The notes beneath the pieces are model-generated. The model did no database searches, had not been told where the DNA came from, and was given only the letters and a program-made list of their open reading frames with translations. DNA of 64,000 bases, taken from positions 20,417 to 84,416 of the IMG/VR virus record IMGVR_UViG_3300044993_000080; one strand, written 5' to 3'. Positions within the stretch are counted from its first letter, which is position 1. Each line of letters begins with the position of its first letter. Shown one piece after another: positions 6,902 through 64,000 of this stretch. This stretch comes from a virus. Both the position numbers and the translations under genes were made by a program.

Positions 6902-6976
6902 CGTTTCGGCTAGTGGAAGGCGACACGAAACCTTGTCGAGAGGGAAACGTGCCTTTCTCAACACTCGCCTACTTAA
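6863..6976 (-). ncRNA. Predicted ~115-nt small RNA with an anti-leader loop
   Basis: Promoter TTGACA (7011-7006), 17 bp, TAACTT (6988-6983); no ORF; hairpin with loop UUUCCCUCUCGACAAGGUUU; ends in an intrinsic terminator. Confidence 0.6.
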
Positions 6977-14699: not shown

Positions 14700-15144
14700 G
14701 TCAGTTCTCCCTTTCGATAAGTGAAGACTGCCATAGGCTAGATTTGTTGTCAAGCGCCACGGTCTGGCTCGTCGAAAATGAGCGCCCGTGACGGGCGCGC
14801 TGCAATAGGTTGCAAGCACTTGGGTTCGACCTTCGGCGCGAAGGGCGTCCTTCGCCGCTTCGTCTGGTTTGGCGGGTCATTGGGTATCATGCGCCCATCA
14901 GGTGTGGGTGCTGATGCTCGACATCTCGGCGTTGCGATGTTGATTGCGGCTGGGTGGTGGCGCGGTCGCCTGCGTAGGCTCGCTCGGGCAACTCACGGGC
15001 GATCTCTCGCGGGTGTAGCCTAGCTCACGCCCTGCCTCTTCCATCAGGATCAGGACACGCCGGGTGGTGCGTGGGTTTGCGAGGCTTGCGGGGATCGATA
15101 CCAGACCCGGCATCACGCCACAACCTAGTTTTGATGCCAAGCCG

Positions 15145-23204: not shown

Positions 23205-23268
23205 AGTCGCCACTCCTTCTCGATAGATCAGGTGTAGCGTAGCCGGGATTTTATGTCAAGCGGAAAGT

Positions 23269-50909: not shown

Positions 50910-50912
50910 GGC

Positions 50913-51350
50913 TCAACGACGCGCCTTGATCGACAGGTCCGCTTCCTTCGGTGTGGTGTCGATGCACCCGGCCATGACGTTCGTGCCACACACCCTCTTC
51001 ACACTGGTCATCGGAGCCGAGACGGCTTCGAGAAACTGGTCCAGCGTAATCTCGCCAGCGGCGATCTTGGCGTAGAGCTTGCGAACGTTGATGGTCTCGG
51101 TCTGACCACCTTCGATAATCGCGTCAAACGTCTTGCCGCCTTCCTCGAAGGTGAAGGTCGAAATTTTCGCCGCCAGCATTGCCTTATGGCACTGGAGCTT
51201 GCTCTCCTTCTCGATCTTGGCGGCTGCGTTCTTCTGGATATTGGCGCGAGCGAACCTGCGCGCCTCGATCTCGTAAACGGGCATAGCCGGAGCGGCCTGC
51301 ACGTTGGTGGCGCGACGGCGCGGGGCGGGGTTGGTAGCACGTGTGGTCAT
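50913..51350 (-). CDS. Hypothetical protein
   Basis: Follows a promoter (-35 at 51413-51408) and an ATCGAGAGGGAG leader. Confidence 0.7.
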   Translation of the reverse strand: MTTRATNPAPRRRATNVQAAPAMPVYEIEARRFARANIQKNAAAKIEKESKLQCHKAMLAAKISTFTFEEGGKTFDAIIEGGQTETINVRKLYAKIAAGEITLDQFLEAVSAPMTSVKRVCGTNVMAGCIDTTPKEADLSIKARR

Positions 51351-51447
51351 AACTCAATACTCCCTCTCGATAGTAGGTTAGTAGATCATAGCGTGGCTAA
51401 CTTTTTATGTCAACCCGGTCATTTCGGGCTTGCAACCGGTTGCAGCG

Positions 51448-54378
51448 TCAAGTGCTGACTAATACCCTCTGGCGGGGCCGGGGGTTGACCACTGGCAATC
51501 CGTCGAAAAGAGGCACGTCACCGCGTATGAACCGCTCGTAGGCTTCGTCCTCGTTGTTGTTCCACCACTCCGGCTTCTCGACCCAGCCATTGAGGTATTC
51601 GTCCTCGATACCCTTGTCCGCGTTGCCGGGGATGTAGAGTTGGCCCTCTGCGGTCTTCTTCACTTCTGTGGTCTCGGCAAGGTTCATCCCGAACTCAAGG
51701 TCCGCGCCGAAGGGCAATGGTGCGCGAATACCGAACCACTCTTCGAGTGGTGGGTTCTCCATAATCCATGCCAGCCAACCCATGCACTGATCCCTGTAGC
51801 GGGGGTCCACTTCGCAGATGATCTGATCGTGCACGAAACCAACCGGGCGGATCAGGCGTGGATCGGCCTGTGCCGCGAGCCGTGCGATGGCGATGACGCC
51901 CAAATCCGAACCAAACCGCTGGATCGGTGCGTTGATCGCCTGCCGGACAGCGCTGCTGCTGATACTCCAATCGTCGCTCCATACTGCCGGAAGGTGGCGG
52001 CGTCCGCCGTGCAGCGTGTTGACGTATCCATGCTGCCTGACGAAATGCTCGACTTCGGCGTGCCACGGCAAGAGCTTGTATTTATCGAAAAACAGGTCGC
52101 GGGTCTCGCGGGCTTCGCGCTCGGTGTAGTCCACCCCGTATTGCGTCTTGGCGTAAGTCTGGAACGTGCTCCACTGCGCGCCGTAAATGAAGCCGAAGTT
52201 GACGGCCTTGGCCCTGAAACGCTGGAGCTTCTGCACGTCCTTGGGGAGCGCCTGGAACTGCTCGACAGTGATACGCATCACCGCCGCTGCGGTCGCTTCG
52301 TGAATGTCGCCCCCGGTATTGTAAATCCGCAGCATTTCCTTTTCCATCGCGCTCCACGCGGTCAGGCGAAGCTCGATCTGCGACATATCGGCAGCGATGA
52401 GCACCTTACCCGCGCTGGCCTTGATGAGGCGTAGGAAGCCCTTGGCGAAGTTGCCCCGCTTGGGAAAGTTTTGGCCGTTTGGCTCTTGACTGTTGGTCCG
52501 GGAAGTGTTGGTCCTGAAGTTGTAGGACGGGTAAATCTTCTCCTCACCCGTGTGGTCGTTGGCAGGCTTGATGTATTTATAGAACCCGTCAATGTAGGTG
52601 TTCTTGAGCTTCTGCGCTTTCTTGAAGTCAATGAACCGGCGCACGAACTCTCCCGCCTTGTCCTTCCTGTCCGTGAAGTAGGGCAGGTGGTCTTTGGTGC
52701 TGACGCTCGGCACGCGCTGCTCCGGTGCGAGTTTGGCGGTGGACTTGGTAAAAACCACTGGCTTCAGTGAGAAACCGTCGGCACTGAACAGAATGTCCTG
52801 CACAAAGGCGTCGCGGCTGAACTTCGCACCCTTCGGGTCCATGAGATACTTGCGCCGGACGGCGGCGGGCACCATGCGGAATAGGGCGCGCTCCTCATCC
52901 TTCAGCCACTGGTCCACCTCGTCTCGATATTCGTCGAGTGCGTGACGGTCGATACACTGGCCAAAGCTCTCGATCCGCTTGGCGAAGCTGATGAGGCCGC
53001 GCATCTGCACGTTCTTGTAGAGGAAAAACTGGCCGGGCTCGCGGCGCAACATCGGGTAAAGTGCACGTGCCAGTCGATAAGTGGCGTCCGGATCACCGCC
53101 CGCGTAGCTCAACATGCCGGGCCTGACGATGTGGCCGTTTTCATTCACTTCGTCGAACGGCGGCACTTCAAGCATGTTGCCCTTGTCCACCGTCCTATTG
53201 AACAGGTCGCTGTAGCCAGATAGCGGCGGGACGTAAACGCGCACACAGTCGTCGAGACTGTAGCTCATCATATTCTCGTTGACCGCACGGGTCATCAACT
53301 CGGTGTCGTGCTCCCAACCCTGCACGTCGATCCCGAGCCCGTAACGCATTGAGCCGTCGTCATACTTGAAGTTATGACCCATCTTCCGGACTGTGGCATC
53401 CTCCATCAGCGTCTTGATCTGACGAAGAAGCGCCCGCATCGACTGCGGCGTCATGTGGATGCCATTGGCCTCGAACGCCCCACGGTGTCGCTCGTAGTAG
53501 TTCCATGAGACAGGGCAAACGATAGACAAGCCGGGGCCGGTGCTGATCTGGACGGTGTAAACCTCGAAGTCCGGGGCGCGGAAGTTTAGCCCACTGGTTT
53601 CGGTATCGACCGCAATCATGCCCGGCTTGTTGTCGAGCAGGCGCTGGATGTCCGTCTCCCAGCGATAGTCCACATCGGTGGTCTGAAGACTGGTGTTGTC
53701 GAAGTCGCCTTCCTTGAGCCGGTTGAGTGTGCCAAGGTCCGCGTCGAACACTGGCATGTAGTCGGGCTGCTTGGTGCACAGCTTCGGCGATAGGACGGGG
53801 AACACTAGCCGGTCGTTGAACCCGGTCACAGCAACACCTCGGGCCTTGGTGATCTTCACCGCCCTGCCCAACATGACGCGGGTAGCAAGCTCGCCGCACG
53901 TCACCACGGCGCGCGGGTTGATCTTCTCAACCCAATCGCGCAGCCGCTCCTCGAACTGCTTCACGTGATCCCATTTGCGTTTGGCGCTCGACAGGTCAGA
54001 TTGCTTGATCGGGGAGCACAGCGTGATGAATTGGAAGTCGTTCTCGACAAAACCCTGCTCGCTGGCGCGCTTCGCAAACCACACAAGCTGGTCTTTCGTC
54101 ATCGGAAGACCCTCCTGCATCGCTTGGATCGTCGGGCTATCGCAGATGACTAGGATTGGCGCATCCGGCTGCCCTCGGCGCGGGAAGGGGAACGTCTCAG
54201 GCGTCGGCGGGGCGTAGTTGTGCTCGTTAATTGTCCGGGCGCGGATGGCATGTCCGTTGCTCTCGAACTGCGCCGCTGCAACGGGTTGCACGGGCGAGCG
54301 GACTATGGACCGTGCCACATCGTCAACGATAGGCGACCTCGCAATGCCGTTCTTGATATTTCTCGGGATAATTGTCAC
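51448..54378 (-). CDS. Family A DNA polymerase with N-terminal UDG-like domain and 3'-5' exonuclease
   Basis: Exo DTETSG, HNFKYD and YA..D; polymerase motifs DMSQIELR, AKAVNFG.IYG and VHDQ. Confidence 0.92.
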   Translation of the reverse strand: MTIIPRNIKNGIARSPIVDDVARSIVRSPVQPVAAAQFESNGHAIRARTINEHNYAPPTPETFPFPRRGQPDAPILVICDSPTIQAMQEGLPMTKDQLVWFAKRASEQGFVENDFQFITLCSPIKQSDLSSAKRKWDHVKQFEERLRDWVEKINPRAVVTCGELATRVMLGRAVKITKARGVAVTGFNDRLVFPVLSPKLCTKQPDYMPVFDADLGTLNRLKEGDFDNTSLQTTDVDYRWETDIQRLLDNKPGMIAVDTETSGLNFRAPDFEVYTVQISTGPGLSIVCPVSWNYYERHRGAFEANGIHMTPQSMRALLRQIKTLMEDATVRKMGHNFKYDDGSMRYGLGIDVQGWEHDTELMTRAVNENMMSYSLDDCVRVYVPPLSGYSDLFNRTVDKGNMLEVPPFDEVNENGHIVRPGMLSYAGGDPDATYRLARALYPMLRREPGQFFLYKNVQMRGLISFAKRIESFGQCIDRHALDEYRDEVDQWLKDEERALFRMVPAAVRRKYLMDPKGAKFSRDAFVQDILFSADGFSLKPVVFTKSTAKLAPEQRVPSVSTKDHLPYFTDRKDKAGEFVRRFIDFKKAQKLKNTYIDGFYKYIKPANDHTGEEKIYPSYNFRTNTSRTNSQEPNGQNFPKRGNFAKGFLRLIKASAGKVLIAADMSQIELRLTAWSAMEKEMLRIYNTGGDIHEATAAAVMRITVEQFQALPKDVQKLQRFRAKAVNFGFIYGAQWSTFQTYAKTQYGVDYTEREARETRDLFFDKYKLLPWHAEVEHFVRQHGYVNTLHGGRRHLPAVWSDDWSISSSAVRQAINAPIQRFGSDLGVIAIARLAAQADPRLIRPVGFVHDQIICEVDPRYRDQCMGWLAWIMENPPLEEWFGIRAPLPFGADLEFGMNLAETTEVKKTAEGQLYIPGNADKGIEDEYLNGWVEKPEWWNNNEDEAYERFIRGDVPLFDGLPVVNPRPRQRVLVST

Positions 54379-55658
54379 GCCCCGCTCCACTCGTCTCCGA
54401 TAGGCTGCTCGCCTATGTGTCCGTTCCAATTCCCGTTCTCGTCTTCCGCCACAGGCTCGTCGTCGATCTCGTCCATGTTGAACGGCTCGAACTCAAAGCG
54501 GGTCAGGAAGCTCAGATGATCCGGGCCATGACGGTTCTTCAAAACCGCGATGCGTCGACGTGATCTCTCAAACGGCGCTGGTCCTCGCCTCATCCCCAAC
54601 ACAAGGCTGGAGACCTGCCCCACTACGTCCGTTCCGCCGATTTGCGACAGGTCCATATCTTCGTCTTGGGTGCTGGAGCGATTGAACTGAACTGTCTGCA
54701 AAATGGGTTTGTTCCGACGCAAGGCGAGCCCCTTGATCTCGGTGGCGGTGTCGGCCAGTGCCTCCCACCTCTTGCCCTTGTAGCGCTTGTCGCTCGGTTG
54801 CAAAAGGTAGCTGGCGTCAATGCAAACAAAATCCGGGCTGTGCTCTTGAATAAATGCGCTGACATCTGCAACGCTCTTGGTCAGGTCGCCCACTAGCATG
54901 GTAAAGGGCGGAAGCCCGCGCACCCGATCCATGGCGGCCTGCACCGCATCTTCGCCCCATTGCGACATGCGACCTCGGAGCATGAAATCGGGGTTGACCC
55001 CGGTGAGCATAGCCATGACACGGCGTGCGGTCTCCACTGCCGTCATCTCCATACTGACGAAGGCAATACTTGCCCCTCGCTGCCAAGCCCGGACAGCGGC
55101 GCGGGTAATGGCGTTGCTCTTGCCAATACCGGGCCGGGCCACGATGCTGCCAACGTCGCCATTGCGCAGTCCGCCCGTGATGTTGTCTAAGAACTCCCAG
55201 CCGTAAGACATTCCCTGAAGACCGGGCGAACTTCGGGCGATTTGATAGGTTTCCCACGCCTCTTGCAAAGCGTCTGCCAGTGTGCAGGTGTCCTGCTGAA
55301 CATCAACGCTCGAAATAATCATGGCAATCTCCCGGAATAACTCCCGGACCCGCTCCATGTTATTCGCCTGAAGCGCCTGATGCAGCGCGTTCTGGCGCTC
55401 CGAGTAAGCGCTGTAAACCGCGCGGTCTGATAGGCGCTGAAGGTGATAATCGACCGGACCGGTGGCTGCCGGGGTCGCCATGTTATTTTCAAGCATGACG
55501 GCGTAATCGGGCAACTGCCCGTAGCGCGTCAGGAACGCCATCACGAAGTCAAAGGTGCGGTGCTCTTCCTCAGTGAATAGCTCGCGCCGGGCGGACATGA
55601 ACTCACTGCGCGCCCCGTTGTCGATGCACGCCCGGATAAAGGTGAGCCCGGCGCTCAT
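54375..55658 (-). CDS. dnaB: DnaB-like replicative helicase
   Basis: ARPGIGKS, SMEM, ID..YL, Q.NR and KNRHG. Confidence 0.9.
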   Translation of the reverse strand: MSAGLTFIRACIDNGARSEFMSARRELFTEEEHRTFDFVMAFLTRYGQLPDYAVMLENNMATPAATGPVDYHLQRLSDRAVYSAYSERQNALHQALQANNMERVRELFREIAMIISSVDVQQDTCTLADALQEAWETYQIARSSPGLQGMSYGWEFLDNITGGLRNGDVGSIVARPGIGKSNAITRAAVRAWQRGASIAFVSMEMTAVETARRVMAMLTGVNPDFMLRGRMSQWGEDAVQAAMDRVRGLPPFTMLVGDLTKSVADVSAFIQEHSPDFVCIDASYLLQPSDKRYKGKRWEALADTATEIKGLALRRNKPILQTVQFNRSSTQDEDMDLSQIGGTDVVGQVSSLVLGMRRGPAPFERSRRRIAVLKNRHGPDHLSFLTRFEFEPFNMDEIDDEPVAEDENGNWNGHIGEQPIGDEWSGA

Positions 55659-56218
55659 CTCGGTTCCATCGCTTTGAGGCCCGTCGGCGTCACCCGCTCA
55701 AGGTGTTCACTGATGAACTCGATCATCTCGCCGGTCCAGTAGCAGTTCGGCATCTCGGCCATCGCGGTGTCCTCTTCGATAGCCAGTTGCAAGAATATCG
55801 CCTTGCCGTTCTCGTGGCGTCGGCGGATAGTGTATTCGACCTCGGCGGCAACGCTGTCATGCAACGGGTTGCCGCGATTGGTGTCTTGGGCGTTGAGCAC
55901 GACCAGAACATCCGCGTCCATCACTTGCTCCCGAAACTCTGGGTCATTGATTAGCCCGCGCATCCTCACCAGCGGCACTACCTTACACCCCACTCCATTG
56001 ATGTGAAGCCCGCGCGCCAGCATGATGATCGCATCCGTCATGCCGATCCCGTGAAAGGCTACGCCCTGTCCTTGCCGAATGGCCTTGCCCCGGCGCTTGA
56101 GGTATTCAAGCATCCCCGCGCCATGCTTCACGTCCCCCAACATGAGGTCGTGGTATCGCCTGCCGATCCCCGCCTCGAATAGAGACAGGCGGACTTCGCT
56201 GGACAGCCCTTCATTCAT
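55655..56218 (-). CDS. Degenerate DnaC/IstB-like helicase loader
   Basis: Between initiator and DnaB; AGI..RY N-terminus and AAA-like strand order, but no GxGKT. Confidence 0.55.
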   Translation of the reverse strand: MNEGLSSEVRLSLFEAGIGRRYHDLMLGDVKHGAGMLEYLKRRGKAIRQGQGVAFHGIGMTDAIIMLARGLHINGVGCKVVPLVRMRGLINDPEFREQVMDADVLVVLNAQDTNRGNPLHDSVAAEVEYTIRRRHENGKAIFLQLAIEEDTAMAEMPNCYWTGEMIEFISEHLERVTPTGLKAMEPR

Positions 56219-57518
56219 CAAACGGGTTCTTCGTGCTGACCATTGGGGCGGATAGAGGAACAAACTCAGGGTCGTTTGCAACGGGTTGCAGTTTCACCCG
56301 GTTTCTAGCGCGTATCTCTTGCGCGGCAATCGACCGGGGGTGCACAGGGGCCTTTCCGCCAAACTCGGCCAACCGTTCGGCCTGCTTGAGCTTGATGTCT
56401 GCGGCGCGAGACCGAGCGCGCACCTTGATCTCGCGGACCCGCATCTCGTCTCGAAGTTCGGCGATGGCGTGGCGCTTGGCGAACTCGGCGGTGGCCTGCT
56501 CGAAGGTCATCCCTCGGGCCATCATCCGCTCGATCTCAGTCCGCTCTTCGGCACTGGCCCACTCTTCCAACTTACCTTCTCCCCAGCACTCGGCAAACTG
56601 GTCAATCATGGCAACATAAAAGTTGAAGGCCGGAACGGCTGGTGGTGGGTTCTTTGTCATCCACTTAAACTGCTTCCGCATGATCTGGGTCCAGTTGCGC
56701 ACGGCCCAGTCGGTGAAGTCAATGAAGCTGATCTGGCGAAAGTTGGCCCAACCACTGGCGAGCCTCTTGGCCTGCCCCTTCTCCCTGCCGGTCCATACAG
56801 GTTCGACCACGTCCGGAAAGGTCTCGCGCAGTGCGTCGCGCCATGCAGCCTCTACGCCCCCGGACGTGGCGCGCTGACTACGGACTTTGAGCCGGGTGGC
56901 CTTGGCTTCTGCGTGGCTGGCCACGGTCCGCTCGATTGTTGCCCGGATAGTCGAAACGGGGTTTGGGGGCTCGCGGTCCGAAGAGGCCGCGTTACCTGTC
57001 CTTTGATTACCTGTATAGGGATTACCTGTATATTGGGTCTCTGTGAGAGACACCCTCGTCTCTGTGAGAGACACCCTCGTCTCTGTGAGAGACACCCTTT
57101 CCGACTTGCAACCGGTTGCATCTTTCTTCAATCGCTTCGGCAGATTAAGTGCCATCTTCGGGCTCCAATCGAGGCGGACACTGTAGTGGGTTTTGTCAGG
57201 ATTGAAAGCGTCGGCACGACGGCGGATCATCCCGCGCCCCTCCAGTGAGGACAACACACGATATAGCTTGGGGCGGCTAAGATTGAGGGGACCATTGACC
57301 TTGTCGCCCCGTAAGAGCCGCCCGGCGCTGAACTGCGCCTCGGTCCGTCCCCACCCAACCGTGCGGTCAACGATAGCTGAAAGCACTCGAAACTCATACG
57401 GGTCCAAGTGCTCGGCCCACTCTCGATTGAGCTTCTGGTAGATCATCAGCTTCGACTGAAGTGAAGAATAATCGTCATCGGAGCCCAAGCTAGGGAACTC
57501 CAGCACCTTGGCTGACAT
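56211..57518 (-). CDS. Replication initiator (lambda O-like, N-terminal wHTH)
   Basis: I.DRT.GW.R....S......G....LS........L...G.I pattern; internal iteron array. Confidence 0.75.
   Translation of the reverse strand: MSAKVLEFPSLGSDDDYSSLQSKLMIYQKLNREWAEHLDPYEFRVLSAIVDRTVGWGRTEAQFSAGRLLRGDKVNGPLNLSRPKLYRVLSSLEGRGMIRRRADAFNPDKTHYSVRLDWSPKMALNLPKRLKKDATGCKSERVSLTETRVSLTETRVSLTETQYTGNPYTGNQRTGNAASSDREPPNPVSTIRATIERTVASHAEAKATRLKVRSQRATSGGVEAAWRDALRETFPDVVEPVWTGREKGQAKRLASGWANFRQISFIDFTDWAVRNWTQIMRKQFKWMTKNPPPAVPAFNFYVAMIDQFAECWGEGKLEEWASAEERTEIERMMARGMTFEQATAEFAKRHAIAELRDEMRVREIKVRARSRAADIKLKQAERLAEFGGKAPVHPRSIAAQEIRARNRVKLQPVANDPEFVPLSAPMVSTKNPFDE
56991..57120. repeat. Candidate replication origin
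   Basis: GTCTCTGTGAGAGACACCCTC at 57037, 57058 and 57079; TTACCTGT at 56992, 57007 and 57022; TGCAACCGGTTGCA at 57107-57120. Confidence 0.8.
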
Positions 57519-57652
57519 ATAATAACCCTGTCTGTCGCCGCCGATTATTCGGCTGTTCTGTAAATCAAGTTGAAAAACTTATGTAATGAAAACCCAGAAC
57601 TAGGTAAAGCCCCTACATATAGGGCCTTGACATGGGGTAAACTACTAGAAAG

Positions 57653-58039
57653 TCAGAATTGACCTTTCAGGCGAAGTGCGTCGAGATATGCGATCTCGAC
57701 CTTAACCGCTTCATCATACTCGGCGAACAATAGCACATCATCGCCGTTGTGGTCCCGCGCCCAGCCGGACGGGGCGAGTGCCGTGAGCTTGTCGCCTGCG
57801 CGGTCAGCGCGCCAGCTTTCGGGCTGGCTGTTGCGAAAGGCGCTGAAGGTCAGTTTGCCGCGCCCGGCCTCTTGCAGCACGTCAATAAACCATGCTTGAC
57901 GCTCGGCGTCCCACTCGATCAGAGACGCGCGCTTGATGTCCGCCTTGCCGAACTGGCGAAGGTCCAGCCCTTGGCCGGGCTTGCGCTGAAGGCCGGACAT
58001 GGAACCGTCCCGGCCAATGGTGATTACCTGCCTGTGCAT
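57653..58039 (-). CDS. Hypothetical protein of the AAA/DUF1257 module
   Basis: I.RAS.IEW......W..D motif; GGGAG RBS. Confidence 0.65.
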   Translation of the reverse strand: MHRQVITIGRDGSMSGLQRKPGQGLDLRQFGKADIKRASLIEWDAERQAWFIDVLQEAGRGKLTFSAFRNSQPESWRADRAGDKLTALAPSGWARDHNGDDVLLFAEYDEAVKVEIAYLDALRLKGQF

Positions 58040-58104
58040 ATGGGTTCTCCCCCAGAAACGAACGGGGCGGGGCTCCCGTGAGAGACACCCGCCGCGCCCA
58101 GTTG

Positions 58105-58305
58105 TTACCAGCCCTGCTCGATCTGCGTTTCCGCGCTCTGCGAGTATTCGGGCTTGTATTCGCGGTCCCCTGCGTTGGGCTTGCCGCCCGCCAGCGCCTG
58201 CTCGATATGGGCGGTAGCTGCTTCACACGAGTTGCCCACGAACCCTTCAGCTTCGACCTTCTTGTTTCCCATGGGGTCGATGGTGATCTTGATTTTCTGA
58301 TCCAT
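58105..58305 (-). CDS. DUF2997-like protein
   Basis: I.I.IDP.G...VEAEGF.G.SC..AT..IE.AL...KPEY. Confidence 0.8.
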   Translation of the reverse strand: MDQKIKITIDPMGNKKVEAEGFVGNSCEAATAHIEQALAGGKPNAGDREYKPEYSQSAETQIEQGW

Positions 58306-58332
58306 GATATGCGTTCCTTGTTGGTAGCGCGA

Positions 58333-58788
58333 TCAAACGACGGCGAGAATGATCTGGACGTTACCGTCCGCATCGACATCGCAGCTTTCGATGACATGCC
58401 CAGCAGCCATGGCTGCGTTCATGGCGACGTGCTTGCCGTATTCCTGCAAAAACCGCCCGATCTGGTGCTGGGTGTATTCTTGCGAAGCGTAGGCGGCGGT
58501 GCCGGGCACCGGGCACGTCGCGCCAAGGTAGCGCCCCACGTGACCCTGATAGACATCGAGCACGGGCTCATAGTTGCCCTCAGCATTGCGCTTCAAGCCG
58601 ACATCGTATGCACCGTCGAGTTTCAGCACGAGGTCGCATGTTTCCACGCTATCGTAGCCGTGGACGCGCGGCTTGGCGTTCTCGACAATGCGAACGTTGA
58701 TGCCCTGCGAATTGAGGCTTGCGACGGCCTGACGAACTGCGCCGAGATCGGTGATGACGATCCCCGACAACTTGGTAACGTGACTCAT
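58333..58788 (-). CDS. DUF1257-like protein
   Basis: MSH.T.....TD..A...A..., YDVG.......Y....D and G...Q.Y. Confidence 0.75.
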   Translation of the reverse strand: MSHVTKLSGIVITDLGAVRQAVASLNSQGINVRIVENAKPRVHGYDSVETCDLVLKLDGAYDVGLKRNAEGNYEPVLDVYQGHVGRYLGATCPVPGTAAYASQEYTQHQIGRFLQEYGKHVAMNAAMAAGHVIESCDVDADGNVQIILAVV

Positions 58789-58872
58789 AGTTGATACTCC
58801 CTTCTTCCATCGGCCCTCTGCCGACTGGGTATGTTGAACCTAACCTGCCAGACATTTTATGTCAAGCAACAT

Positions 58873-59514
58873 CTAGAGCTTGAGCGCTCTACCGCGCCGG
58901 GTGGAGATCACTTGGACCTCTTCACCATCATGGGTCCGCACGATCTCCACTTTGGTCTTGGCCGGTGCACGGCGCTCCGGCGCAATCTGCTCCCTGATGA
59001 ACACCGCCCGGACCTTATCGGGCTTGGCCAATTGCAGGTCTTGTGCGTGTATGGGGATACGGGCGGCCCCGGCCTCTCGCAGCGAAACGACATCGAACCG
59101 ACCCTCGACAATGACAGCGGCGTTAGTGGACTGCCTGCTGTCGATCCTGCGAAGCTGCAACCGTTGCAAAGGCCCATCCTCTCGCGCCCGTATAAACACC
59201 ACGCCTTCCTCAATGAAGGGCCGGGAGCCGAACCGCGTCTTGCGTCGCCCATAGACCCGCAAAATCGCCCCCTCGGGCACGTTGAAGTTGCCGTCCCAGT
59301 AGGAACCTTGCTCTCGCACGCCTGTCGTGCTGGCAGGTAAGTAGGAAGGACGCGACTGCTCTGTGATGTGTTGACGGTTCTTGGCGGCTTCGCTGATAAA
59401 TACACCCTTGCCGCCCGGCACCTCGAACTTGGTCTGTGGTTCCAGCGTGACTATCAGCGCCGCGCTGCCCTCTTTGAAGGTTTCCGAACCTGTGATGCAC
59501 CTTATGAATGGCAT
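58873..59514 (-). CDS. Hypothetical protein
   Basis: ORF with RBS; C-terminal RRGRALKL. Confidence 0.65.
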   Translation of the reverse strand: MPFIRCITGSETFKEGSAALIVTLEPQTKFEVPGGKGVFISEAAKNRQHITEQSRPSYLPASTTGVREQGSYWDGNFNVPEGAILRVYGRRKTRFGSRPFIEEGVVFIRAREDGPLQRLQLRRIDSRQSTNAAVIVEGRFDVVSLREAGAARIPIHAQDLQLAKPDKVRAVFIREQIAPERRAPAKTKVEIVRTHDGEEVQVISTRRGRALKL

Positions 59515-59534
59515 GTCATATTCCTGAATAGGGT

Positions 59535-59574
59535 GTCCGGCTGGCATCACTTATCGAGAGGGTGCCAGCCGGAC
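59535..59574 (-). promoter_or_regulatory. Intergenic hairpin displaying an anti-leader loop
   Basis: 12-bp perfect stem GTCCGGCTGGCA/TGCCAGCCGGAC; minus-strand loop CCCUCUCGAUAAGUGA; no U tract. Confidence 0.65.
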
Positions 59575-59612
59575 TAAGCGGTGTGAAGGGAGATCACACA
59601 CACCGCCTGTTC

Positions 59613-61316
59613 TTACTCGGCAGGGTCAGTGTCGTCCCTGCTCAGGTTGGTCGCACGTATCTGCTGGCCGTCCACGAGGTGCACGGGCTTGCGGACGCGA
59701 CGCCTTGGTTGGATACGGGCTTCAGTCGAACGAGAGGCCGGGCGGGCGTTTTGCTCCGCCCATACTCTCATAGCTTCGAATTGCTCTGCGAACGCCTCGG
59801 ATAGCGGGCGCATAGTCGAAAGCTGCTCCGCGATTAGGTTGCCGTCCACCTGCCGCCCGGTGACAAACGCCTTAATTTTGGCGTCCTTGACTGCGGCCTC
59901 GATCTCGGCGGGCACAAACCCATCGGAGCCCGCGACTGCCGCCGCAAGGTTCTCCACGGTGTCCGGGTCCACCTTGCGCTTCCGCAAGTGGATTTTGATG
60001 ACCTCTTCGCGCTCCGCATCGTCCGGCACGGTGACGCTGAACACTTCGTCCAGTCGGCCCCGGCGTAGGAACTCGGCGGGCAAGTTATTGGTGCGGTTGG
60101 CCGTGGCAACCCAGAAGATCGGCGATGAACTTTCCTGCATGTGGGTAAGGATAGCCCCCAGCACGCGCTGGCTGATACCGCTGTCTCCGCCACTGCCAAG
60201 CTGGAACGCCTTGTCCACCTCGTCGAGCATGACTACGCAAGGTGCCATGGCGTCGAGCATTTTCAGGGCTGCGCGCACACGCTCTTCCGAACTGCCGACA
60301 ATCCCGTGGAACACTCGGCTCACGTCGAACTTGATAAGGGGAAGTCCCAGCTTGGCCGCCGCTGCTTTGGCGACAAGGCTCTTGCCGGTGCCGGGCGGTC
60401 CAATCAGAGCGATGCCCTTCGGGGCCTCGATCCCAGCGTCTGCGGCCTCTTGGCCGAAGCACCCGGCCCGCTCGTCCAGCCATTCCTTGAGATTGTCGAG
60501 CCCACCGATCTCGTCCATGTTGGCGCTCGGCATGACTTCCAGCACTTCGGAGCGCTTGACTACCTCGACCTTGACCTTCAGCACTTCGCGGGCGATCTCG
60601 TCACCGGACAGATTGGGGAGCTTGGTCTTGTGGGTGACGAGCGCTCGCGCCAGCGCAGTCTCGAACTCGTGCGCCGACATACCGGACCCCGCCGCAATGA
60701 TGTGCTGGCGGTCGTCATTGGTGAGACAGGGCTTCTTGTCGCGCGGCAAGTCGCGGATTTGCTCATCGAGCATGGTGCCCAATTCGGCGAAGCTCGGCGG
60801 GTCGAAGTCGAGGATCGTCACGTCGTCCTCAAGCTCGTTCGGAAGCTGATAGCCGGGCGGTGTCAGCAGGATCAGGCGCTTGGCATCGGCTTCGACACCG
60901 TAGCTGAAGCTGCGCGCGTATTCCTTGATGGCCTGCAACATCGAAGGCTGCACGCCACCCTGCTTGATCCAGTGCTGTGGATACATATAGACGTAGAACC
61001 CGCCGCCCATGTCGGAAGCTCCGTTGTCATTCAGGCCCTCAATCTTCTGAAGCGCCATGTTTGGGTCTTTGGTGCCGTCCGGTTCTTCCTGACGACCATC
61101 TGCTTTGAAGCAGGTCCAGCCATTCAGGACGGTCCACAACCAAAGCGGCATCTTCTGCGCAAATGAGAGCGCTTTGATGCTGTCCAGTGCGCGGTAAGGC
61201 TCGCGGGTCCGGCATACGACGACGCCGACTGCTGCGTTGTGCAGCACATTGAGGTTGGCGCGAAACAGGTCCGCATTGCGGACACTTGCCTGCTCGGTAG
61301 TCATTGATGTGGTCAC
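59613..61316 (-). CDS. Ycf46-like AAA+ ATPase
   Basis: Degenerate N-terminal AAA; IGGLDNLK.W, GPPGTGKS, LDEVDK, ATAN and RRGRLDE; follows a promoter cassette (-35 at 61388-61383). Confidence 0.9.
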   Translation of the reverse strand: MTTSMTTEQASVRNADLFRANLNVLHNAAVGVVVCRTREPYRALDSIKALSFAQKMPLWLWTVLNGWTCFKADGRQEEPDGTKDPNMALQKIEGLNDNGASDMGGGFYVYMYPQHWIKQGGVQPSMLQAIKEYARSFSYGVEADAKRLILLTPPGYQLPNELEDDVTILDFDPPSFAELGTMLDEQIRDLPRDKKPCLTNDDRQHIIAAGSGMSAHEFETALARALVTHKTKLPNLSGDEIAREVLKVKVEVVKRSEVLEVMPSANMDEIGGLDNLKEWLDERAGCFGQEAADAGIEAPKGIALIGPPGTGKSLVAKAAAAKLGLPLIKFDVSRVFHGIVGSSEERVRAALKMLDAMAPCVVMLDEVDKAFQLGSGGDSGISQRVLGAILTHMQESSSPIFWVATANRTNNLPAEFLRRGRLDEVFSVTVPDDAEREEVIKIHLRKRKVDPDTVENLAAAVAGSDGFVPAEIEAAVKDAKIKAFVTGRQVDGNLIAEQLSTMRPLSEAFAEQFEAMRVWAEQNARPASRSTEARIQPRRRVRKPVHLVDGQQIRATNLSRDDTDPAE

Positions 61317-61391
61317 GATATTCTCCCTGTAGGTGTCCCTCTCGATTAGGACAGCCCGCAACCTAGGCTAGGCTAGATTTTATGTCAAGCG

Positions 61392-61428
61392 AAAAGAGGG
61401 CCACGCCCTGTGGTAGAGCGCGGCCCTA
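61392..61428 (-). terminator. Probable terminator after the lysis cassette
   Basis: AGGGCCGCGC...GCGTGGCCCT followed by CTTTT on the minus strand. Confidence 0.6.
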
Positions 61429-61504
61429 TAGGATCAACTTGACTGCCTTGATGGTCGCAACAGGGTAACGTCCTAGGCGGCTATCGACATAGCACCGCGC
61501 CGGG

Positions 61505-61816
61505 TCACTGACAACCAAAAGTCGCTGCTTCCAGTTGGTCCGCGTGGTTCATTCGTCGTCCTGCCTGCACCCGGACAGCCTCTGCCTTAGCTCCGGGTGC
61601 CAGCGCCCGCCACTGCTCTTCCGAGATCGTATCCCGCATCGGGATTACAGGTGTCGGGCGCTCACCCACTCCGTCGCCGTCCGTGTCCGGCAAGCACCCG
61701 ACTGCGACTGGCACATAGACCTCGACCGGCACTTCTTCGATCACGGTCCGGGTCGTGGTGCACCCGGCGAGTGCCAGCGCCGCGATCAGGCTAGAAGCCG
61801 TTACGGTAAAGCGCAT
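61505..61816 (-). CDS. Outer-membrane spanin (Rz1-like lipoprotein)
   Basis: Signal peptide with LAGC lipobox; Pro-rich; overlaps the i-spanin 3' end. Confidence 0.8.
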   Translation of the reverse strand: MRFTVTASSLIAALALAGCTTTRTVIEEVPVEVYVPVAVGCLPDTDGDGVGERPTPVIPMRDTISEEQWRALAPGAKAEAVRVQAGRRMNHADQLEAATFGCQ

Positions 61817-62345
61817 CCAATACCTCCTGCATCTGGCGAAGCTCCTCTTGGTCGCTACGCGGCTGGGTTCGGGTTGCCGATTTCTGCGCTTCGGCGATCC
61901 AGCGATCACGTTGGCGGGTAAGGGACTGCACCTCCCTGATCTGTCGGGCCGACTGAGCGCGCATCCGCTCGGTCTCTTCGTTAAGGCGGCGGACCTCACG
62001 GGTTTGGGTCTCGGCAGTCGTCTTGTAGCCATCTCGCTCACGCCGGGCGATTGCTCGTTCGGTGATAATGGTGCGGACTTCACTGACGATTTTCTTGCGG
62101 TCGACCTTATCGCCGCCGTTCGCAGCCGCGATGATCTGCGCTACTTCGTCGAGCCGCCCGTTGGCCACATCCCGGTCGCTGGTAGCTTTCCACCACATGA
62201 AACCGCAAACAAGCAGGACGCCTGCGCCAATGCCTGCAATGACCCGCAGGCTCAATAGGCCCGTCGCTCCGGCGATGACAGCGCCCGCGCCTTGCTTAAC
62301 GCGAGCCGCTATCGTGTTTTCGGCAAATCTGCCCACGATGCCCAT
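61791..62345 (-). CDS. Inner-membrane spanin (Rz-like)
   Basis: N-terminal TM followed by a long coiled coil; follows the endolysin. Confidence 0.75.
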   Translation of the reverse strand: MGIVGRFAENTIAARVKQGAGAVIAGATGLLSLRVIAGIGAGVLLVCGFMWWKATSDRDVANGRLDEVAQIIAAANGGDKVDRKKIVSEVRTIITERAIARRERDGYKTTAETQTREVRRLNEETERMRAQSARQIREVQSLTRQRDRWIAEAQKSATRTQPRSDQEELRQMQEVLDALYRNGF

Positions 62346-63193
62346 TAGTCGAGCCCGTTGCTTCGGTTGTTGAAGCGCTTCCAGATGATGTAAGCTGACA
62401 GCGCGAAAATGATGAAACCAAGCGCCGTTGAAAGCCACGCTAGGTGCTGCAACTTGTCTGCTTCGCCCTGAAGATCGCGCATCGAACTGGTGGCTGTCAT
62501 CAGGCCCTCAACCGTGATGGGAGCCGCCACTACACTTCCGGTGACTGCGCCAACGATGCCCTTGCTGCTGGTAAGGGGTTTCGGCGGGTCCGGCTCAACC
62601 CGCTTACTGACGTCGGCGATGTATGTCCGCTCTTTTACAGGAACCTCTACCGGTCGCATGTAAAGCGAAGCCTCTTCGGCACGGCGTCGGGTCAAGCCGC
62701 GCATTACGCGCCCGCCCGCTTTGTTCCACAAAGCGAACTGCGCAGCCGCACCTTCATAATCGCCCGCCCTGTGCTTTTTCAGCAACGTGGAGCCCCCTAG
62801 TCCCCTGCCCCGGATACGCGGATTTCCCAACCCCACGTTGTAGGCGAATAGAACCAGTGCGTCGAACTGATTTTGGTTGGTCTCGGCCCCGCCTTGGATC
62901 AGGCGCATTACGCCGCGCTCGAACTTGTCGATGTCTGCATCGAACAGCGCTTCGGCCTTCTGGCGGGTGATGCGCATACCCAGTGCCAGCGGGACGCCGT
63001 CGAGCGTGCCTGTGTGACCCCAGCCAATCGTGGGACGTCCAGCGTCGTCGATGTATGTTTCGAGCGCGGGTTCGCCGCTCTTGAGAACGATCAGGCGATT
63101 ACCCTGCATCCGCCCGCCCGTCTCGTAGCGCTTCAGGATAGCGCGACCTTCATCCGATAGCCTCACTTTGACCTCCACTGCTGCCAAGACCAT
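62345..63193 (-). CDS. Endolysin, GH24 lysozyme with C-terminal membrane segment
   Basis: E...Y.D..G..TIGWGHT, QFDAL..F.YNVG, STLLK and GL.RRR.EE. Confidence 0.9.
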   Translation of the reverse strand: MVLAAVEVKVRLSDEGRAILKRYETGGRMQGNRLIVLKSGEPALETYIDDAGRPTIGWGHTGTLDGVPLALGMRITRQKAEALFDADIDKFERGVMRLIQGGAETNQNQFDALVLFAYNVGLGNPRIRGRGLGGSTLLKKHRAGDYEGAAAQFALWNKAGGRVMRGLTRRRAEEASLYMRPVEVPVKERTYIADVSKRVEPDPPKPLTSSKGIVGAVTGSVVAAPITVEGLMTATSSMRDLQGEADKLQHLAWLSTALGFIIFALSAYIIWKRFNNRSNGLD

Positions 63194-63238
63194 GTATCAG
63201 GTTCTCACTACACAGGGAAGCCTGCAACGGGTTGCAAA

Positions 63239-63517
63239 TTACTGTAGCAACGCGGACCCGCCCAGTTTAATCCCCATACCCAGCAAGAGCGCGCCGAATA
63301 GTGCGGTAGTCAGGAACTTGACGATGGCTTGAAGAGCGGACTTTCGCACCTCTTTCCACGACGCCATCAACTTCCGAAGCTCGCGCAAATCCTCGCCCGC
63401 GTTCTCGTCTTCGAGACCTAGTTCCTTCAGCGCACGCCGGGCTCCAGCCGCTGCCGCCCGATCAAGGGCGTTGTCGAACTCTTCCTTGGTCATGCTCATT
63501 GGCACGCTAGATGACAT
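63239..63517 (-). CDS. DUF6127-like / putative holin
   Basis: A..GA.RAL..LGL.D..A..D..ELR.L..W and a C-terminal TM; upstream of the endolysin. Confidence 0.6.
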   Translation of the reverse strand: MSSSVPMSMTKEEFDNALDRAAAAGARRALKELGLEDENAGEDLRELRKLMASWKEVRKSALQAIVKFLTTALFGALLLGMGIKLGGSALLQ

Positions 63518-63626
63518 GGCGACGCAACCCTTTACCAGACGAGCCGTGCTCTAACAGCGATGACATAACCCCGTCAACGGGTTCAGACCCTGCCCGCATC
63601 AAGATGGTTACGCGGGCCATCAGGCA

Positions 63627-64000
63627 CTACGGCTGAACGTCCATCAGGATCAGTTCATCCAGATTGGTTATGAACATGAACACGCGGTTCACGCCCGTCA
63701 GGCTGCGCCGAAGAACAAGTGCTCCGTTGCCATTGAGGCCTACCCATCCGTGCTCATTTCCGCTGTAGCGTGGCTTCCATGAAGTCCCTTTGATCTTGGC
63801 TGTCTCAAGCAACGTCTCCGGCACGAACCGCTCAAACCTGCGAACCGCAATGGTGTCGCCTACCAGAACCGTCGCCGGGTTCACCGTGACAATGAAGTCC
63901 GGGTCGCGCTGCCACTGCATCAGCCAATCGACCAGCGGCTTGAACCGCAAGCCGGTCTGGATGCTTTCGCGCCACAGCTTGTTTCCGGGGATGCCGGTCA
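63627..64000 (-). CDS. C-terminal part of a hypothetical protein
   Basis: Frame stays open to the window end. Confidence 0.5.
   Translation of the reverse strand, partial: TGIPGNKLWRESIQTGLRFKPLVDWLMQWQRDPDFIVTVNPATVLVGDTIAVRRFERFVPETLLETAKIKGTSWKPRYSGNEHGWVGLNGNGALVLRRSLTGVNRVFMFITNLDELILMDVQP

What the first reader, a model, noticed from the sequence alone, without database searches (positions are those of the whole stretch)
59535..59574. Second anti-leader loop, inside the AAA-ATPase operon
Seen: a perfect 12-bp stem with no U tract whose minus-strand loop is CCCUCUCGAUAAGUGA. It is a perfect 10-nt complement of AUCGAGAGGG, which is the leader of this operon (61346-61337) and of the 50913-51350 gene. 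It also matches 15/16 nt of the cassette at 14709-14724. The 6.9 kb RNA ends ...CGAC (matching G-start leaders) and this one ...CGAU (matching A-start leaders). Inference: a second antisense element, acting either in cis by folding back on its own leader or as a processed RNA. Two unrelated stems carrying the same anti-motif argue against chance.
Basis: partly seen in the sequence, partly recalled or inferred. Interest (0 to 1): 0.75.

Follow-up and report, generated by a model that had tools for sequence, protein, structure and literature searches.

The report
Phage RNA hairpin mirroring its own leader
Between two genes of an uncultured phage sits an RNA hairpin whose exposed loop is the exact mirror of the start-of-message sequence of its own operon, and related phages change loop and leader together, so the two most likely pair to control how much protein the message yields.

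Summary
On the minus strand at 59535-59574 a perfect 12-bp stem carries the 16-nt loop CCCUCUCGAUAAGUGA. No U tract follows. It lies between an AAA+ ATPase gene and the next gene of the same two-gene operon.

The loop is a perfect 10-nt complement of AUCGAGAGGG in the operon's own 5' leader and in one other leader. It matches a third leader at 15 of 16 positions. These three leaders are its three best predicted targets among 16,878 sense-strand windows.

The main new evidence is covariation. Four related phages (55-64% ATPase identity) also have a hairpin after the ATPase gene whose loop complements their own, different, ATPase leader. All 45 core pair cells are paired, and 5 of 9 positions changed on both sides. 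Two further phages carry the complement of their own standard ribosome-site cassette instead.

I read this as a selected RNA-RNA contact between leader and intercistronic hairpin. It most likely limits ATPase translation or tunes mRNA stability. Whether it acts in cis or in trans, and in which direction, is not resolved. No RNA data exist.

It works like cuckoo/CcsR anti-SD hairpins and icaR-type pairing within one mRNA, but belongs to no known family. Unchecked notes from this scan report similar anti-leader hairpins at 6.9 kb in this genome and in other phages.

The parts
59535..59574 (-). HP2, the anti-leader hairpin. It has a perfect 12-bp stem and a 16-nt loop.
   Evidence: z -5.65.
59547..59562 (-). 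HP2 loop, CCCUCUCGAUAAGUGA. The first 10 nt complement AUCGAGAGGG.
   Evidence: The duplex scan gives leaders as its top 3 targets.
59578..59606 (-). HP1, the neighbouring hairpin (8-10 bp stem). Its 13-nt loop UGUGAUCUCCCUU contains AUCUCCCUU. That 9-mer complements AAGGGAGAU, the SD of four standard leaders, and 7 nt of it (UCUCCCU) complement the ATPase SD AGGGAGA.
   Evidence: By duplex energy the loop is not leader-specific.
59515..59534 (-). Spacer and ribosome-binding site (AGGAA) of the downstream gene. CACCCTATTC is identical in relative L002.
61337..61346 (-). Leader site A, AUCGAGAGGG, in the operon's own 5' UTR at -30 to -21 from the GTG. It is a perfect 10-nt partner of the HP2 loop.
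61322..61328 (-). Shine-Dalgarno AGGGAGA of the ATPase gene. It complements 7 nt of the HP1 loop.
   Evidence: read directly from the sequence.
61360..61388 (-). Operon promoter of the standard cassette type: TTGACA, 17 nt, TAGGTT.
59613..61316 (-). AAA+ ATPase gene (567 aa, PF00004, phrog_8638), first gene of the operon.
58873..59514 (-). Second gene of the operon (213 aa, no family). It is conserved next to the ATPase gene in relatives.
51362..51371 (-). Second perfect 10-nt target, in the leader of the 50913-51350 gene.
14709..14724 (-). Leader UCACUUAUCGAAAGGG of a 61-aa gene (14514-14699). It complements the whole loop at 15 of 16 positions and is the best duplex energy in the genome (-22.8 kcal/mol).
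6936..6945 (-). Sister anti-leader motif CCCUCUCGAC, in the loop of the 6.9-kb promoter-to-terminator RNA. That RNA is a separate finding.

Best explanation
The hairpin is a selected RNA element in the intercistronic region of the two-gene AAA+ ATPase operon of an alphaproteobacterial-type siphophage. It is transcribed as part of the operon mRNA; I found no promoter or terminator of its own.

Its stem holds a 16-nt loop open. The first 10 nt of that loop base-pair with AUCGAGAGGG near the 5' end of the same operon's leader. The loop of the neighbouring hairpin HP1 can pair with the Shine-Dalgarno sequence 8 nt further on. The order of the two sites fits antiparallel pairing.

The contact may form within one mRNA molecule or between copies of it. 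I think it most likely masks the ribosome-loading region of the ATPase cistron. That would limit ATPase translation, or change the fate of the mRNA 5' end, while the downstream gene keeps its own free ribosome-binding site just after the hairpin.

Shown here: the structure, the complementarity, its specificity for leaders, and co-evolution of loop and leader in relatives. Inferred: that the RNA pairs in vivo, that the result is repression, and that the own leader is the main target.
For: 1. Anatomy. The hairpin is intergenic, on the sense strand, strongly folded, and has no U tract.

2. Target specificity. Among 16,878 sense-strand windows, the loop's three best duplexes are all promoter leaders: -22.8, -21.8 and -20.3 kcal/mol, against a mean of -7.2 (sd 2.7). 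The own leader ranks third.

3. Covariation. The own leader versus the own post-ATPase IGR gives 10 nt (window), 12 nt (L002/G001: GACGAAAGGGAA with UUCCCUUUCGUC), 9 nt (L004/G002: GUCGAACGG with CCGUUCGAC), 8 nt (L008/G003) and 11 nt (L037: UACGGAAGGAG with CUCCUUCCGUA). Cross-phage combinations give 4-9 nt.

4. Shuffles of the IGR reaching the observed length: 8, 1, 15, 80 and 0 of 2000 for those five. The sixth locus, G004, gives 232 of 2000 and is not significant. Fisher combined over all six gives 5e-9.

5. Same-length windows elsewhere in each genome reaching the observed length: 12 of 3365, 4 of 3725, 36 of 3842, 135 of 3399 and 342 of 4357. Fisher combined gives 1.5e-6.

6. Pair table. 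45 of 45 core cells are paired in five phages, and 5 of 9 positions changed on both sides. Sliding the partner gives 18-26 of 45.

7. The targets are private to the operon. In G003 TCGAAAGG occurs once on the sense strand, in the ATPase leader. In G001 the loop matches the ATPase-type GAC variant, not the common GUC leaders. In G002 GTCGAACGG occurs in one leader and one coding site.

8. Second sites in antiparallel order. In the window, the HP1 loop faces the SD. In G003, GUACCCUC directly after the stop codon complements the own SD region GAGGGUAC.

9. Stem sequences differ between phages but always pair. In L002 the sense strand has G.U pairs, which would be mismatches on the other strand.

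10. Plausibility. aSD-like 8-mers placed hundreds of nt downstream pair with the RBS, block translation and promote decay in B. subtilis (PMC12697547, abstract read).
Against: - There is no RNA evidence of any kind; no RNA run holds this sequence.
- In G003 the own leader ranks only 57th by duplex energy, and in G004 107th.
- In G004 and RHph_I4 the clean loop complement (10-11 nt) is to the standard RBS cassette GGAGAACCAC and to the next gene's leader. The match to the ATPase leader is only 8 nt and lies half in a weak stem.
- In the window the best energy is with the 14709 leader, not the own leader.
- In G002 and G003 site A starts only 6-7 nt after the -10 box. It would sit at the very 5' end of the mRNA, and if the transcript starts further downstream it would not be in the RNA at all.
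- The HP1 loop is not leader-specific by energy.
- General 9- and 10-mer complements of leaders are not enriched genome-wide: 164 against 289 and 153 in the controls.
- The genomes are related, so the combined p-values overstate independence. The pair frames were chosen from the best complement.
Confidence: 0.6

Rival explanations
1. A trans-acting anti-leader regulator. The hairpin acts on other phage messages, either embedded in the operon mRNA or cut out of it. It would repress the subset with A-start or GAGAGGG leaders (genes at 51350 and 14699). Together with HP1 and the 6.9-kb RNA it would form a small network that times early-gene translation. This does not exclude the best explanation.
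For: - The two best duplex energies in the window are with other leaders (14709 and 51362).
- The whole 16-nt loop matches the 14709 leader at 15 of 16 positions.
- In G004 and RHph_I4 the loop complements the standard cassette GGAGAACCAC, which precedes 11 genes.
- HP1's AUCUCCCUU complements four standard leaders.
- CcsR RNAs are cut from a 3' UTR with RNase E involved in the processing (PMC8034643, abstract and section headings seen).
Against: - In G002 and G003 the target sequence exists in only one leader, the operon's own.
- In G001 the loop follows the ATPase-specific GAC variant.
- Part of the 14709 match (UCACUUA) probably lies at or before that promoter's transcription start. That match may therefore reflect common descent rather than function (inference).
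- No promoter, terminator or processing signal marks out a separate RNA.
Confidence: 0.25
2. A DNA-level operator. The 10-bp motif is a binding site for a phage regulator protein. It would be present at the start of certain transcription units and, inverted, between the two genes. Leader and loop would then co-vary because both track the protein's specificity.
For: - The motif overlaps or closely follows the predicted transcription start (6-13 nt after the -10 box), a usual place for an operator.
- Covariation between genomes is also expected for two sites of one protein.
Against: - It gives no reason for a 9-13 bp inverted repeat that directly flanks the site in every phage, with a different sequence in each.
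- It does not explain the G.U pairs that exist only on the sense strand.
- It does not explain why the loop follows a leader variant private to the operon within one genome (G001, G003).
- It does not explain the second, antiparallel site facing the SD.
- The genome already has an obvious operator candidate: the TGCAAC-NN-GTTGCA palindromes beside its promoters.
Confidence: 0.07
3. A purely structural hairpin, such as a relic terminator, a 3'-end stabiliser or a processing site at an old transcription-unit boundary. Its loop complementarity would have no function and would be left over from an inverted copy of a leader cassette.
For: - More distant relatives have a terminator plus a promoter at this position (L048, L052, L054, L055).
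- G004 and RHph_I4 have a weak U tract and a promoter after the hairpin.
- The plus strand of the loop resembles the 14709 cassette beyond the pairing core, including TGGCA.
Against: - A neutral relic would not keep perfect 8-12 nt complementarity while both partners change at 5 of 9 positions across phages whose ATPases differ at 36-45% of residues.
- The hairpin has no U tract in the window.
Confidence: 0.06
4. A plus-strand feature. An antisense transcript, or a small plus-strand gene, would use the leader-like sequence as its own ribosome-binding site.
For: - On the plus strand the loop reads as a leader (TCACTTATCGAGAGGG).
- A GTG-started 80-codon frame begins at 59562.
- In G004 one sense-strand anti-cassette copy really is the RBS of an opposite-strand gene.
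Against: - I saw no plus-strand promoter; the region's genes and cassette promoters are on the minus strand.
- The GTG directly abuts the motif.
- The frame runs antisense through the ATPase gene.
- In L002 the corresponding frame stops after 5 codons (read).
Confidence: 0.02

Closest known systems
Cuckoo / CcsR small RNAs of Alphaproteobacteria (PMC4615179 and PMC8034643; abstracts and section headings seen)
   Same: - Two to four adjacent hairpins with variable stems.
- Each shows a C/U-rich anti-SD-type motif in its loop.
- CcsR RNAs lie downstream of a protein gene and are processed from its 3' UTR.
- The lineage is the same as this phage's presumed hosts.
   Different: - The defining loop motif CCUCCUCCC is absent; the loops here are CCCUCUCGAUAAGUGA and UGUGAUCUCCCUU.
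- The upstream gene is an AAA+ ATPase, not ccaF (DUF1127).
- There is no Rfam hit.
- The loop is tailored to a phage-private leader and co-varies with it.
- The location is intercistronic, not a 3' UTR.
icaR mRNA 5'UTR-3'UTR pairing in Staphylococcus aureus (PMC3868564) and the hbs 5'/3'-UTR interaction in B. subtilis (PMC5737220). For both I saw only the title and the start of the abstract.
   Same: A sequence downstream of the coding region of the same mRNA pairs with the 5' leader or SD region. This controls translation or ribonuclease access.
   Different: - Here the downstream partner sits in a hairpin loop between two cistrons of a phage operon.
- In the window, the main target site lies 8 nt upstream of the SD.
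- No RNase III or RNase Y/J1 involvement can be tested.
- Those cases have experimental proof; this one has none.
Long-range aSD-like sequences in bacterial mRNAs (Gill et al. 2025 preprint, PMC12697547; abstract read)
   Same: Pyrimidine-rich sequences far downstream pair with the RBS, inhibit initiation and promote decay.
   Different: That work describes such sequences as depleted from natural genes, that is, selected against. Here one is conserved, displayed in a loop, and co-evolves with its leader, so it appears to be used deliberately.
c4 antisense RNA of phages P1 and P7. [quoted passage not shown] The mechanism is recalled, because the paper is not held.
   Same: As recalled: a phage antisense RNA is co-transcribed with its target in one operon. 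Its loops pair with the target's ribosome-binding region. Loop-target covariation between P1 and P7 sets immunity specificity.
   Different: - c4 lies upstream of its target and is cut out by RNase P (recalled).
- Here the element lies 1.75 kb downstream of its target.
- No processing is known here.
- There is no sequence or structural similarity.
Anti-leader hairpins noted earlier by this scan: at 6.9 kb in this genome (e1-6136374) and in other uncultured phages (e1-5337001, e1-5364454, e1-5966480, e1-6083456, e1-5811705). These are unchecked AI notes.
   Same: - A hairpin loop that is the exact complement of the phage's private leader/RBS tag.
- It lies behind an early gene, in one case behind an ATPase gene.
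- Loop and leader change together in relatives.
   Different: - Here the best-matching target is the operon's own leader, and in several relatives that target is unique in the genome. This points to self-targeting rather than a global early-gene switch.
- I did not see those loci and cannot say whether they are homologous.

Membership tests
Cuckoo / CcsR RNA family | Two to four adjacent hairpins with variable stems (PMC4615179 abstract) | tested here: met
   Two adjacent hairpins, HP1 and HP2, lie in the 98-nt spacer.
Cuckoo / CcsR RNA family | Every hairpin loop carries CCUCCUCCC (PMC4615179 abstract) | tested here: not met
   The loops are UGUGAUCUCCCUU and CCCUCUCGAUAAGUGA. Loops in L037 and L043 contain CCUCCUUCCG, which is not the motif either.
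Cuckoo / CcsR RNA family | Match to a curated Rfam model | tested here: not met
   No family reaches its gathering score anywhere in the window except tmRNA. At E up to 10 in 59300-59800 there are only two chance-level hits, at 15.3 and 13 bits against cut-offs of 45 and 44.
Intra-mRNA anti-RBS pairing (icaR type) | The downstream segment of the same transcript is complementary to the own 5' leader or SD region | tested here: met
   10 nt to site A, plus 7 nt from HP1 to the SD. No promoter cassette lies between 61388 and 58865. The single transcript is inferred.
Intra-mRNA anti-RBS pairing (icaR type) | Pairing shown in vivo or in vitro, with an effect on translation or decay | not testable with these tools
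   No RNA run is listed. The phage is uncultured.
Processed phage antisense RNA (P1 c4 type) | A stable small RNA is released from the operon transcript | not testable with these tools
   No RNA data. No tRNA-like or RNase P-type structure was found by ARAGORN or Rfam.
Intrinsic (Rho-independent) terminator | A GC-rich stem followed directly by a U tract | tested here: not met
   The stem is followed by ACCCUAUUCAGG. The hairpin is absent from the terminator scan of 50000-64000.
Double-stranded DNA operator | The sequence motif alone explains conservation, and no strand-specific structure is needed | tested here: not met
   Flanking inverted repeats of different sequence occur in all eight phages that carry the element. 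G.U pairs occur only on the sense strand in L002 and L004. Protein binding was not tested.

The most novel reading that the evidence does not exclude
These phages may run a protein-free RNA address system. Each transcription unit would start with a short private address in its leader, and hairpin loops inside operons would carry the matching anti-address.

The ATPase-operon spacer would then be a two-channel regulator. HP1 would face the standard ribosome-site cassette of the early genes. HP2 would face the operon's own address. Together they would set both a self-limiting dose of the ATPase and the timing of a defined subset of other messages.

Because loop and leader drift together, the system would be private to each phage, much like an immunity specificity. 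Combined with the other anti-leader hairpins noted by this scan in unrelated phages, this would be a widespread and undescribed layer of phage gene control.
Probability: 0.3. Interest if true: 0.8.

Novelty: new variant of a known kind. Interest (0 to 1): 0.65.

Why it matters
Control of phage gene expression after transcription is mostly known from proteins and from a few antisense RNAs. Here sequence alone gives unusually strong comparative evidence that a phage uses a hairpin loop inside an operon to touch its own 5' leader. The evidence is compensatory change at 5 of 9 pair positions in five phages.

Recent work treats downstream anti-SD-like sequences as harmful accidents that genes avoid (PMC12697547, abstract). 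This would be a case where one is kept, displayed and tuned.

The idea can be tested directly, because cultivable Rhizobium phages (L338C, RHph_I4) are the nearest named relatives and RHph_I4 carries a variant of the element. If the self-targeting reading holds, it also offers a simple design rule for setting the ratio of two proteins made from one message.

Tried and rejected
- RNA evidence: no RNA holder is listed for 58800-61500. Contigs of four DNA runs laid on 59400-61450 showed no variant letters. Only the run that may be the source covers the hairpin. Nothing follows from this.
- A consensus fold of six hairpins failed. MAFFT aligned them by loop sequence, the stems fell out of register, and 0 pairs were predicted. 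Stem conservation therefore rests on the single folds.
- A general count of 9- and 10-mers complementary to any of 16 leaders (48-nt frames) is not above controls: 164 against 289 and 153 for 9-mers, and 42 against 85 and 33 for 10-mers. The signal is confined to the leader core and to two loci.
- The HP1 loop is not leader-specific by energy. The standard leaders rank only 7th to 9th. I keep HP1 as a weak second site.
- Leaders are not significantly structured, so a kissing-loop model is not supported. Z-scores are +0.79 to -0.44, except L037 at -2.24.
- Rfam gave nothing.
- Pfam and PHROGs gave no family for the downstream gene or for the two other target genes.
- A single-protein scan with the downstream protein found no viral locus.
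- Relatives without the element: L005/L006/L038, L007, L009, L039, L042, L048, L052, L054, L055, L056, L057 and L059. They have a short spacer, a plain hairpin, or a terminator plus promoter. I read these by eye or by longest complement, and did not fold all of them.
- In all, 8 of 20 distinct relatives' loci inspected carry an anti-leader or anti-cassette hairpin. L043 is counted even though its leader lies off the contig.
- Of the 39 loci, seven were loci already held. Of the 32 new ones I inspected 7 (L048, L052, L054-L057, L059). L085 and L086 were not inspected.
- A plus-strand ORF, a terminator and a DNA operator were considered; see the rivals.
- Literature: searches found no description of a phage hairpin loop complementary to the phage's own standard leader. 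This holds only for the held library and those terms. Supplementary files were not consulted.
- Looking up the L002 spacer in earlier findings by sequence gave nothing.
Full report
WHAT THE WINDOW IS

The window is bases 20417-84416 of an 84.4-kb virus record with direct terminal repeats. It is about 59% G+C, and its genes lie almost all on the minus strand. It carries an alphaproteobacterial-type tmRNA.

Its nearest named relatives are Rhizobium siphophages (L338C, P11VFA, RHph_I4), at 68-69% nucleotide identity over the ATPase gene. One relative (L004/G002) is the same stretch as a contig in a Paracoccus assembly. The host is therefore probably an alphaproteobacterium; this is an inference.

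THE OBSERVATION

On the minus strand the sequence reads GTCCGGCTGGCA, then CCCTCTCGATAAGTGA, then TGCCAGCCGGAC, at 59574-59535, followed by ACCCTATTCAGGAATATGAC and ATG.
- It is a perfect 12-bp stem with a 16-nt loop and no U tract. The terminator scan does not list it.
- It folds at -26.4 kcal/mol with z -5.65.
- It is one of four perfect stems of 12 bp or more among the 36 hairpins found on the sense strand of the whole genome.
- It lies in the 98-nt spacer between an AAA+ ATPase gene (61316-59613; PF00004, phrog_8638) and a 213-aa gene of no known family (59514-58873).
- The next cassette promoter lies at 58865 and the previous one at 61388. The two genes therefore form one operon and the hairpin is inside it.
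- A second hairpin, HP1 (59606-59578), sits just 5' of it. The whole spacer folds with z -4.4.

THE LEADERS

The phage uses a standard promoter-leader cassette: TTGACATAAAATCT..GCCTA.., a -10 box, then a short leader such as GGGGUCGAAAGGGAGAUUUCAAAUG. A pattern search found 17 copies on the minus strand of the genome, and leaders could be assigned to 16 of them.

The leader core UCGA(A/G)AGGG is the 5' end of the message and runs into the Shine-Dalgarno sequence.

The loop's first 10 nt are the exact complement of AUCGAGAGGG. This 10-mer occurs twice on the sense strand, both times in leaders: the hairpin's own operon (61346-61337) and the 51350-50913 gene. The full 16-nt loop matches the leader at 14724-14709 at 15 of 16 positions.

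A duplex-energy scan of the loop against all 16,878 30-nt windows of the sense strand puts these three leaders first, second and third: -22.8, -21.8 and -20.3 kcal/mol, against a mean of -7.2 (sd 2.7). Three further leaders are in the top 12.

IS IT MORE THAN CHANCE WITHIN THIS GENOME?

- CCCTCTCGA occurs 4 times against 0.68 expected.
- On the sense strand the anti-core CCCT[CT]TCG occurs three times. Two of these are in intergenic hairpin loops (this one and the 6.9-kb RNA) and one is in a coding region.
- The own leader (45 nt) against the own spacer gives a 10-nt complement. This is reached by 8 of 2000 shuffles and by 12 of 3365 same-length windows elsewhere in the genome.
- Not every measure is positive. 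A broad count of 9- and 10-mers complementary to any leader frame is at control level.

RELATIVES: THE DECISIVE EVIDENCE

I collected ATPase relatives from IMG/VR, metagenomes, genomes and GenBank phages. I inspected the leader and the post-ATPase spacer in 20 distinct loci. Eight carry a hairpin with an anti-leader or anti-cassette loop, and all eight have 55% or more ATPase identity to the window.

Four of them have a hairpin whose loop complements their own, different, ATPase leader:
- L002/G001: leader GACGAAAGGGAA, loop UUCCCUUUCGUC (12 nt).
- L004/G002: leader GUCGAACGG, loop CCGUUCGAC (9 nt).
- L008/G003: leader UCGAAAGG, loop CCUUUCGA (8 nt).
- L037: leader UACGGAAGGAG, loop CUCCUUCCGUA (11 nt).

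Cross-phage combinations give only 4-9 nt.

Shuffles reaching the observed value are 1, 15, 80 and 0 of 2000 for these four. Genome-window controls for G001, G002 and G003 are 4 of 3725, 36 of 3842 and 135 of 3399. Combining all six loci by Fisher's method, including the non-significant G004, gives 5e-9 by shuffles. Five genomes by windows give 1.5e-6. The phages are related, so these figures overstate independence.

What matters more is the pattern. When leaders and loops are put in register on the shared CG, all 45 cells of nine core pairs in five phages are paired (44 Watson-Crick, one G.U). Five of the nine positions carry changes on both sides: A-U, G-C and U-A at the first; U-A and A-U at the second; A-U and G-C; G-C and A-U; A-U and C-G. 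Sliding the partner by 1-3 nt gives 18-26 of 45. The frame was taken from the best complement, so full pairing is partly by construction. The compensatory differences between phages are not.

All hairpins fold, with z from -1.95 to -5.65. Their stems have unrelated sequences, and L002 has G.U pairs that exist only on the sense strand. The loops of the window, L002 and L008 are visibly homologous: CCCUCUCGAUAAGUGA, CCCUUUCGUCAAUUGU and (U)CCCUUUCGAUGAAUGG.

WHICH LEADER IS THE TARGET?

Several facts point to the operon's own leader.
- In G003, TCGAAAGG occurs once on the whole sense strand, in the ATPase leader.
- In G002, GTCGAACGG occurs in that leader and in one coding site.
- In G001 the ordinary leaders read GUCGAAAGGG, but the ATPase leader reads GACGAAAGGGAA. 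The loop follows the ATPase variant, which has only one other copy, 1.4 kb downstream of the hairpin.
- By duplex energy the own leader is the third-best distinct site in G000, G001 and G002.

A second contact in the right orientation also appears.
- In the window, the HP1 loop contains UCUCCCU, facing the ATPase SD AGGGAGA.
- In G003, the spacer begins with GUACCCUC, facing the own SD region GAGGGUAC. That word precedes a start codon nowhere else in G003.
- In both cases the 5' element of the spacer faces the 3' site of the leader, as antiparallel pairing requires.

Against an exclusive self-target:
- The own leader ranks 57th in G003 and 107th in G004.
- In the window the best energies are with two other leaders.
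- HP1's AUCUCCCUU is a perfect 9-nt complement of the four standard leaders.
- In G004 and RHph_I4 the clean loop complement (GUGGUUCUCC) is to the standard cassette GGAGAACCAC, which precedes 11 genes. It fits the leader of the next gene best (11 nt), and that gene has its own promoter there.
- Those two phages also have an 8-nt complement to the ATPase leader that differs by one compensated base: ACCACGAA with UUCGUGGU, against ACCACGAG with CUCGUGGU. It lies half in a weak stem and is not significant on its own (232 of 2000).

The common denominator is that the loop addresses a leader of the ATPase module. Action in trans on other leaders cannot be excluded and may coexist.

MECHANISM

I commit to an RNA-level contact between the intercistronic hairpin loops and the 5' leader of the same operon. 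Most likely it masks the ribosome-loading region. In the window, site A is at -30 to -21 and the HP1 site lies on the SD. The contact would limit ATPase translation or alter 5'-end-dependent decay, while the downstream gene keeps a free RBS 8 nt after the hairpin.

- Shown: structure, complementarity, leader specificity, covariation.
- Inferred: a single transcript, pairing in vivo, and the direction of the effect.

That such contacts work over hundreds of nucleotides is reported for B. subtilis (PMC12697547, abstract read).

The rivals are ranked in the report sections: a trans-acting regulator, a DNA operator, a relic structural hairpin and a plus-strand feature. The DNA operator fails to explain the flanking stems, the sense-only G.U pairs and the operon-private variants.

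COMPARISON WITH KNOWN SYSTEMS

The element works like the cuckoo/CcsR RNAs of Alphaproteobacteria: adjacent hairpins with anti-SD loops, processed from a 3' UTR (PMC4615179 and PMC8034643, abstracts and section headings seen). It lacks their defining CCUCCUCCC loops and their gene context, and has no Rfam match, so it is not a member.

It also works like icaR-type and hbs-type pairing between the 5' and 3' UTRs (PMC3868564 and PMC5737220; title and start of abstract seen). From recall, it resembles the P1/P7 c4 antisense RNA.

Five literature searches turned up no description of a phage loop that mirrors the phage's own standard leader.

Earlier unchecked notes of this scan describe the sister element at 6.9 kb in this genome and comparable anti-leader hairpins in other uncultured phages. 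The theme therefore recurs in the scan. What this locus adds is the intra-operon, self-addressed arrangement and a clean covariation series.

VERDICT

This is a new variant of a known kind (anti-RBS RNA pairing). The comparative evidence is strong and there is no experimental evidence.

Noticed in passing
window 23225-23661 (-): A phage-encoded alphaproteobacterial-type (permuted, two-piece) tmRNA with tag ANDNPQETALRLAA. A cassette promoter (-35 at 23259) starts the next gene just downstream of it.
   Followed up: no
window, upstream of many cassette promoters (e.g. 40363, 38252, 34784, 20106, 7023): The palindrome TGCAAC-NN-GTTGCA sits just upstream of the -35 box of many promoters. It also occurs in relatives G001, G002 and G004. 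It is a better candidate for a protein operator than the leader motif.
   Followed up: partly
G001 (record behind L002), oriented 77968-78040: Here the anti-leader sequence UCCCUUUCGACC lies in the spacer of a promoter, 16 nt upstream of its own leader GGUCGAAAGGGA, and forms a 12-bp inverted repeat with it. Read-through transcripts would have this leader locked, while transcripts from the promoter itself would not.
   Followed up: partly
window 6936-6945 and 59547-59562; G001 oriented 79063 and 18271: Within each genome the two anti-leader loops also agree outside the pairing core: CCCUCUCGA(C/U)AAG in the window and CCCUUUCG(A/U)CAAU in G001. This suggests duplication or gene conversion between the two loci, or a further constraint on the loop.
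   Followed up: no
window 59515-59534; L002 5781-5800: The 10 nt after the hairpin (CACCCTATTC, overlapping the last stem base) are identical in the window and in L002, although the ATPases are only 64% identical. L004 has CACCATATC. This may be a processing or standby site in front of the downstream RBS.
   Followed up: no
L037 1975-1999: The ATPase leader of L037 can fold so that GUUCUCC pairs with its own SD GGAGAAC (-9.4 kcal/mol, z -2.24). This local anti-SD comes in addition to the distant loop.
   Followed up: no
window 58333-61316; L087 1478-4309: The gene order AAA+ ATPase, then a roughly 213-aa protein of unknown family, then a DUF1257 protein is conserved from the window to Rhizobium phage RHph_I4. 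The function of this module is unknown.
   Followed up: partly
L003 5700-5760 and L087 3210-3240: An 8-nt complement between the ATPase leader and a spacer hairpin differs by one compensated base between the two phages: ACCACGAA with TTCGTGGT, against ACCACGAG with CTCGTGGT. It is suggestive only.
   Followed up: partly
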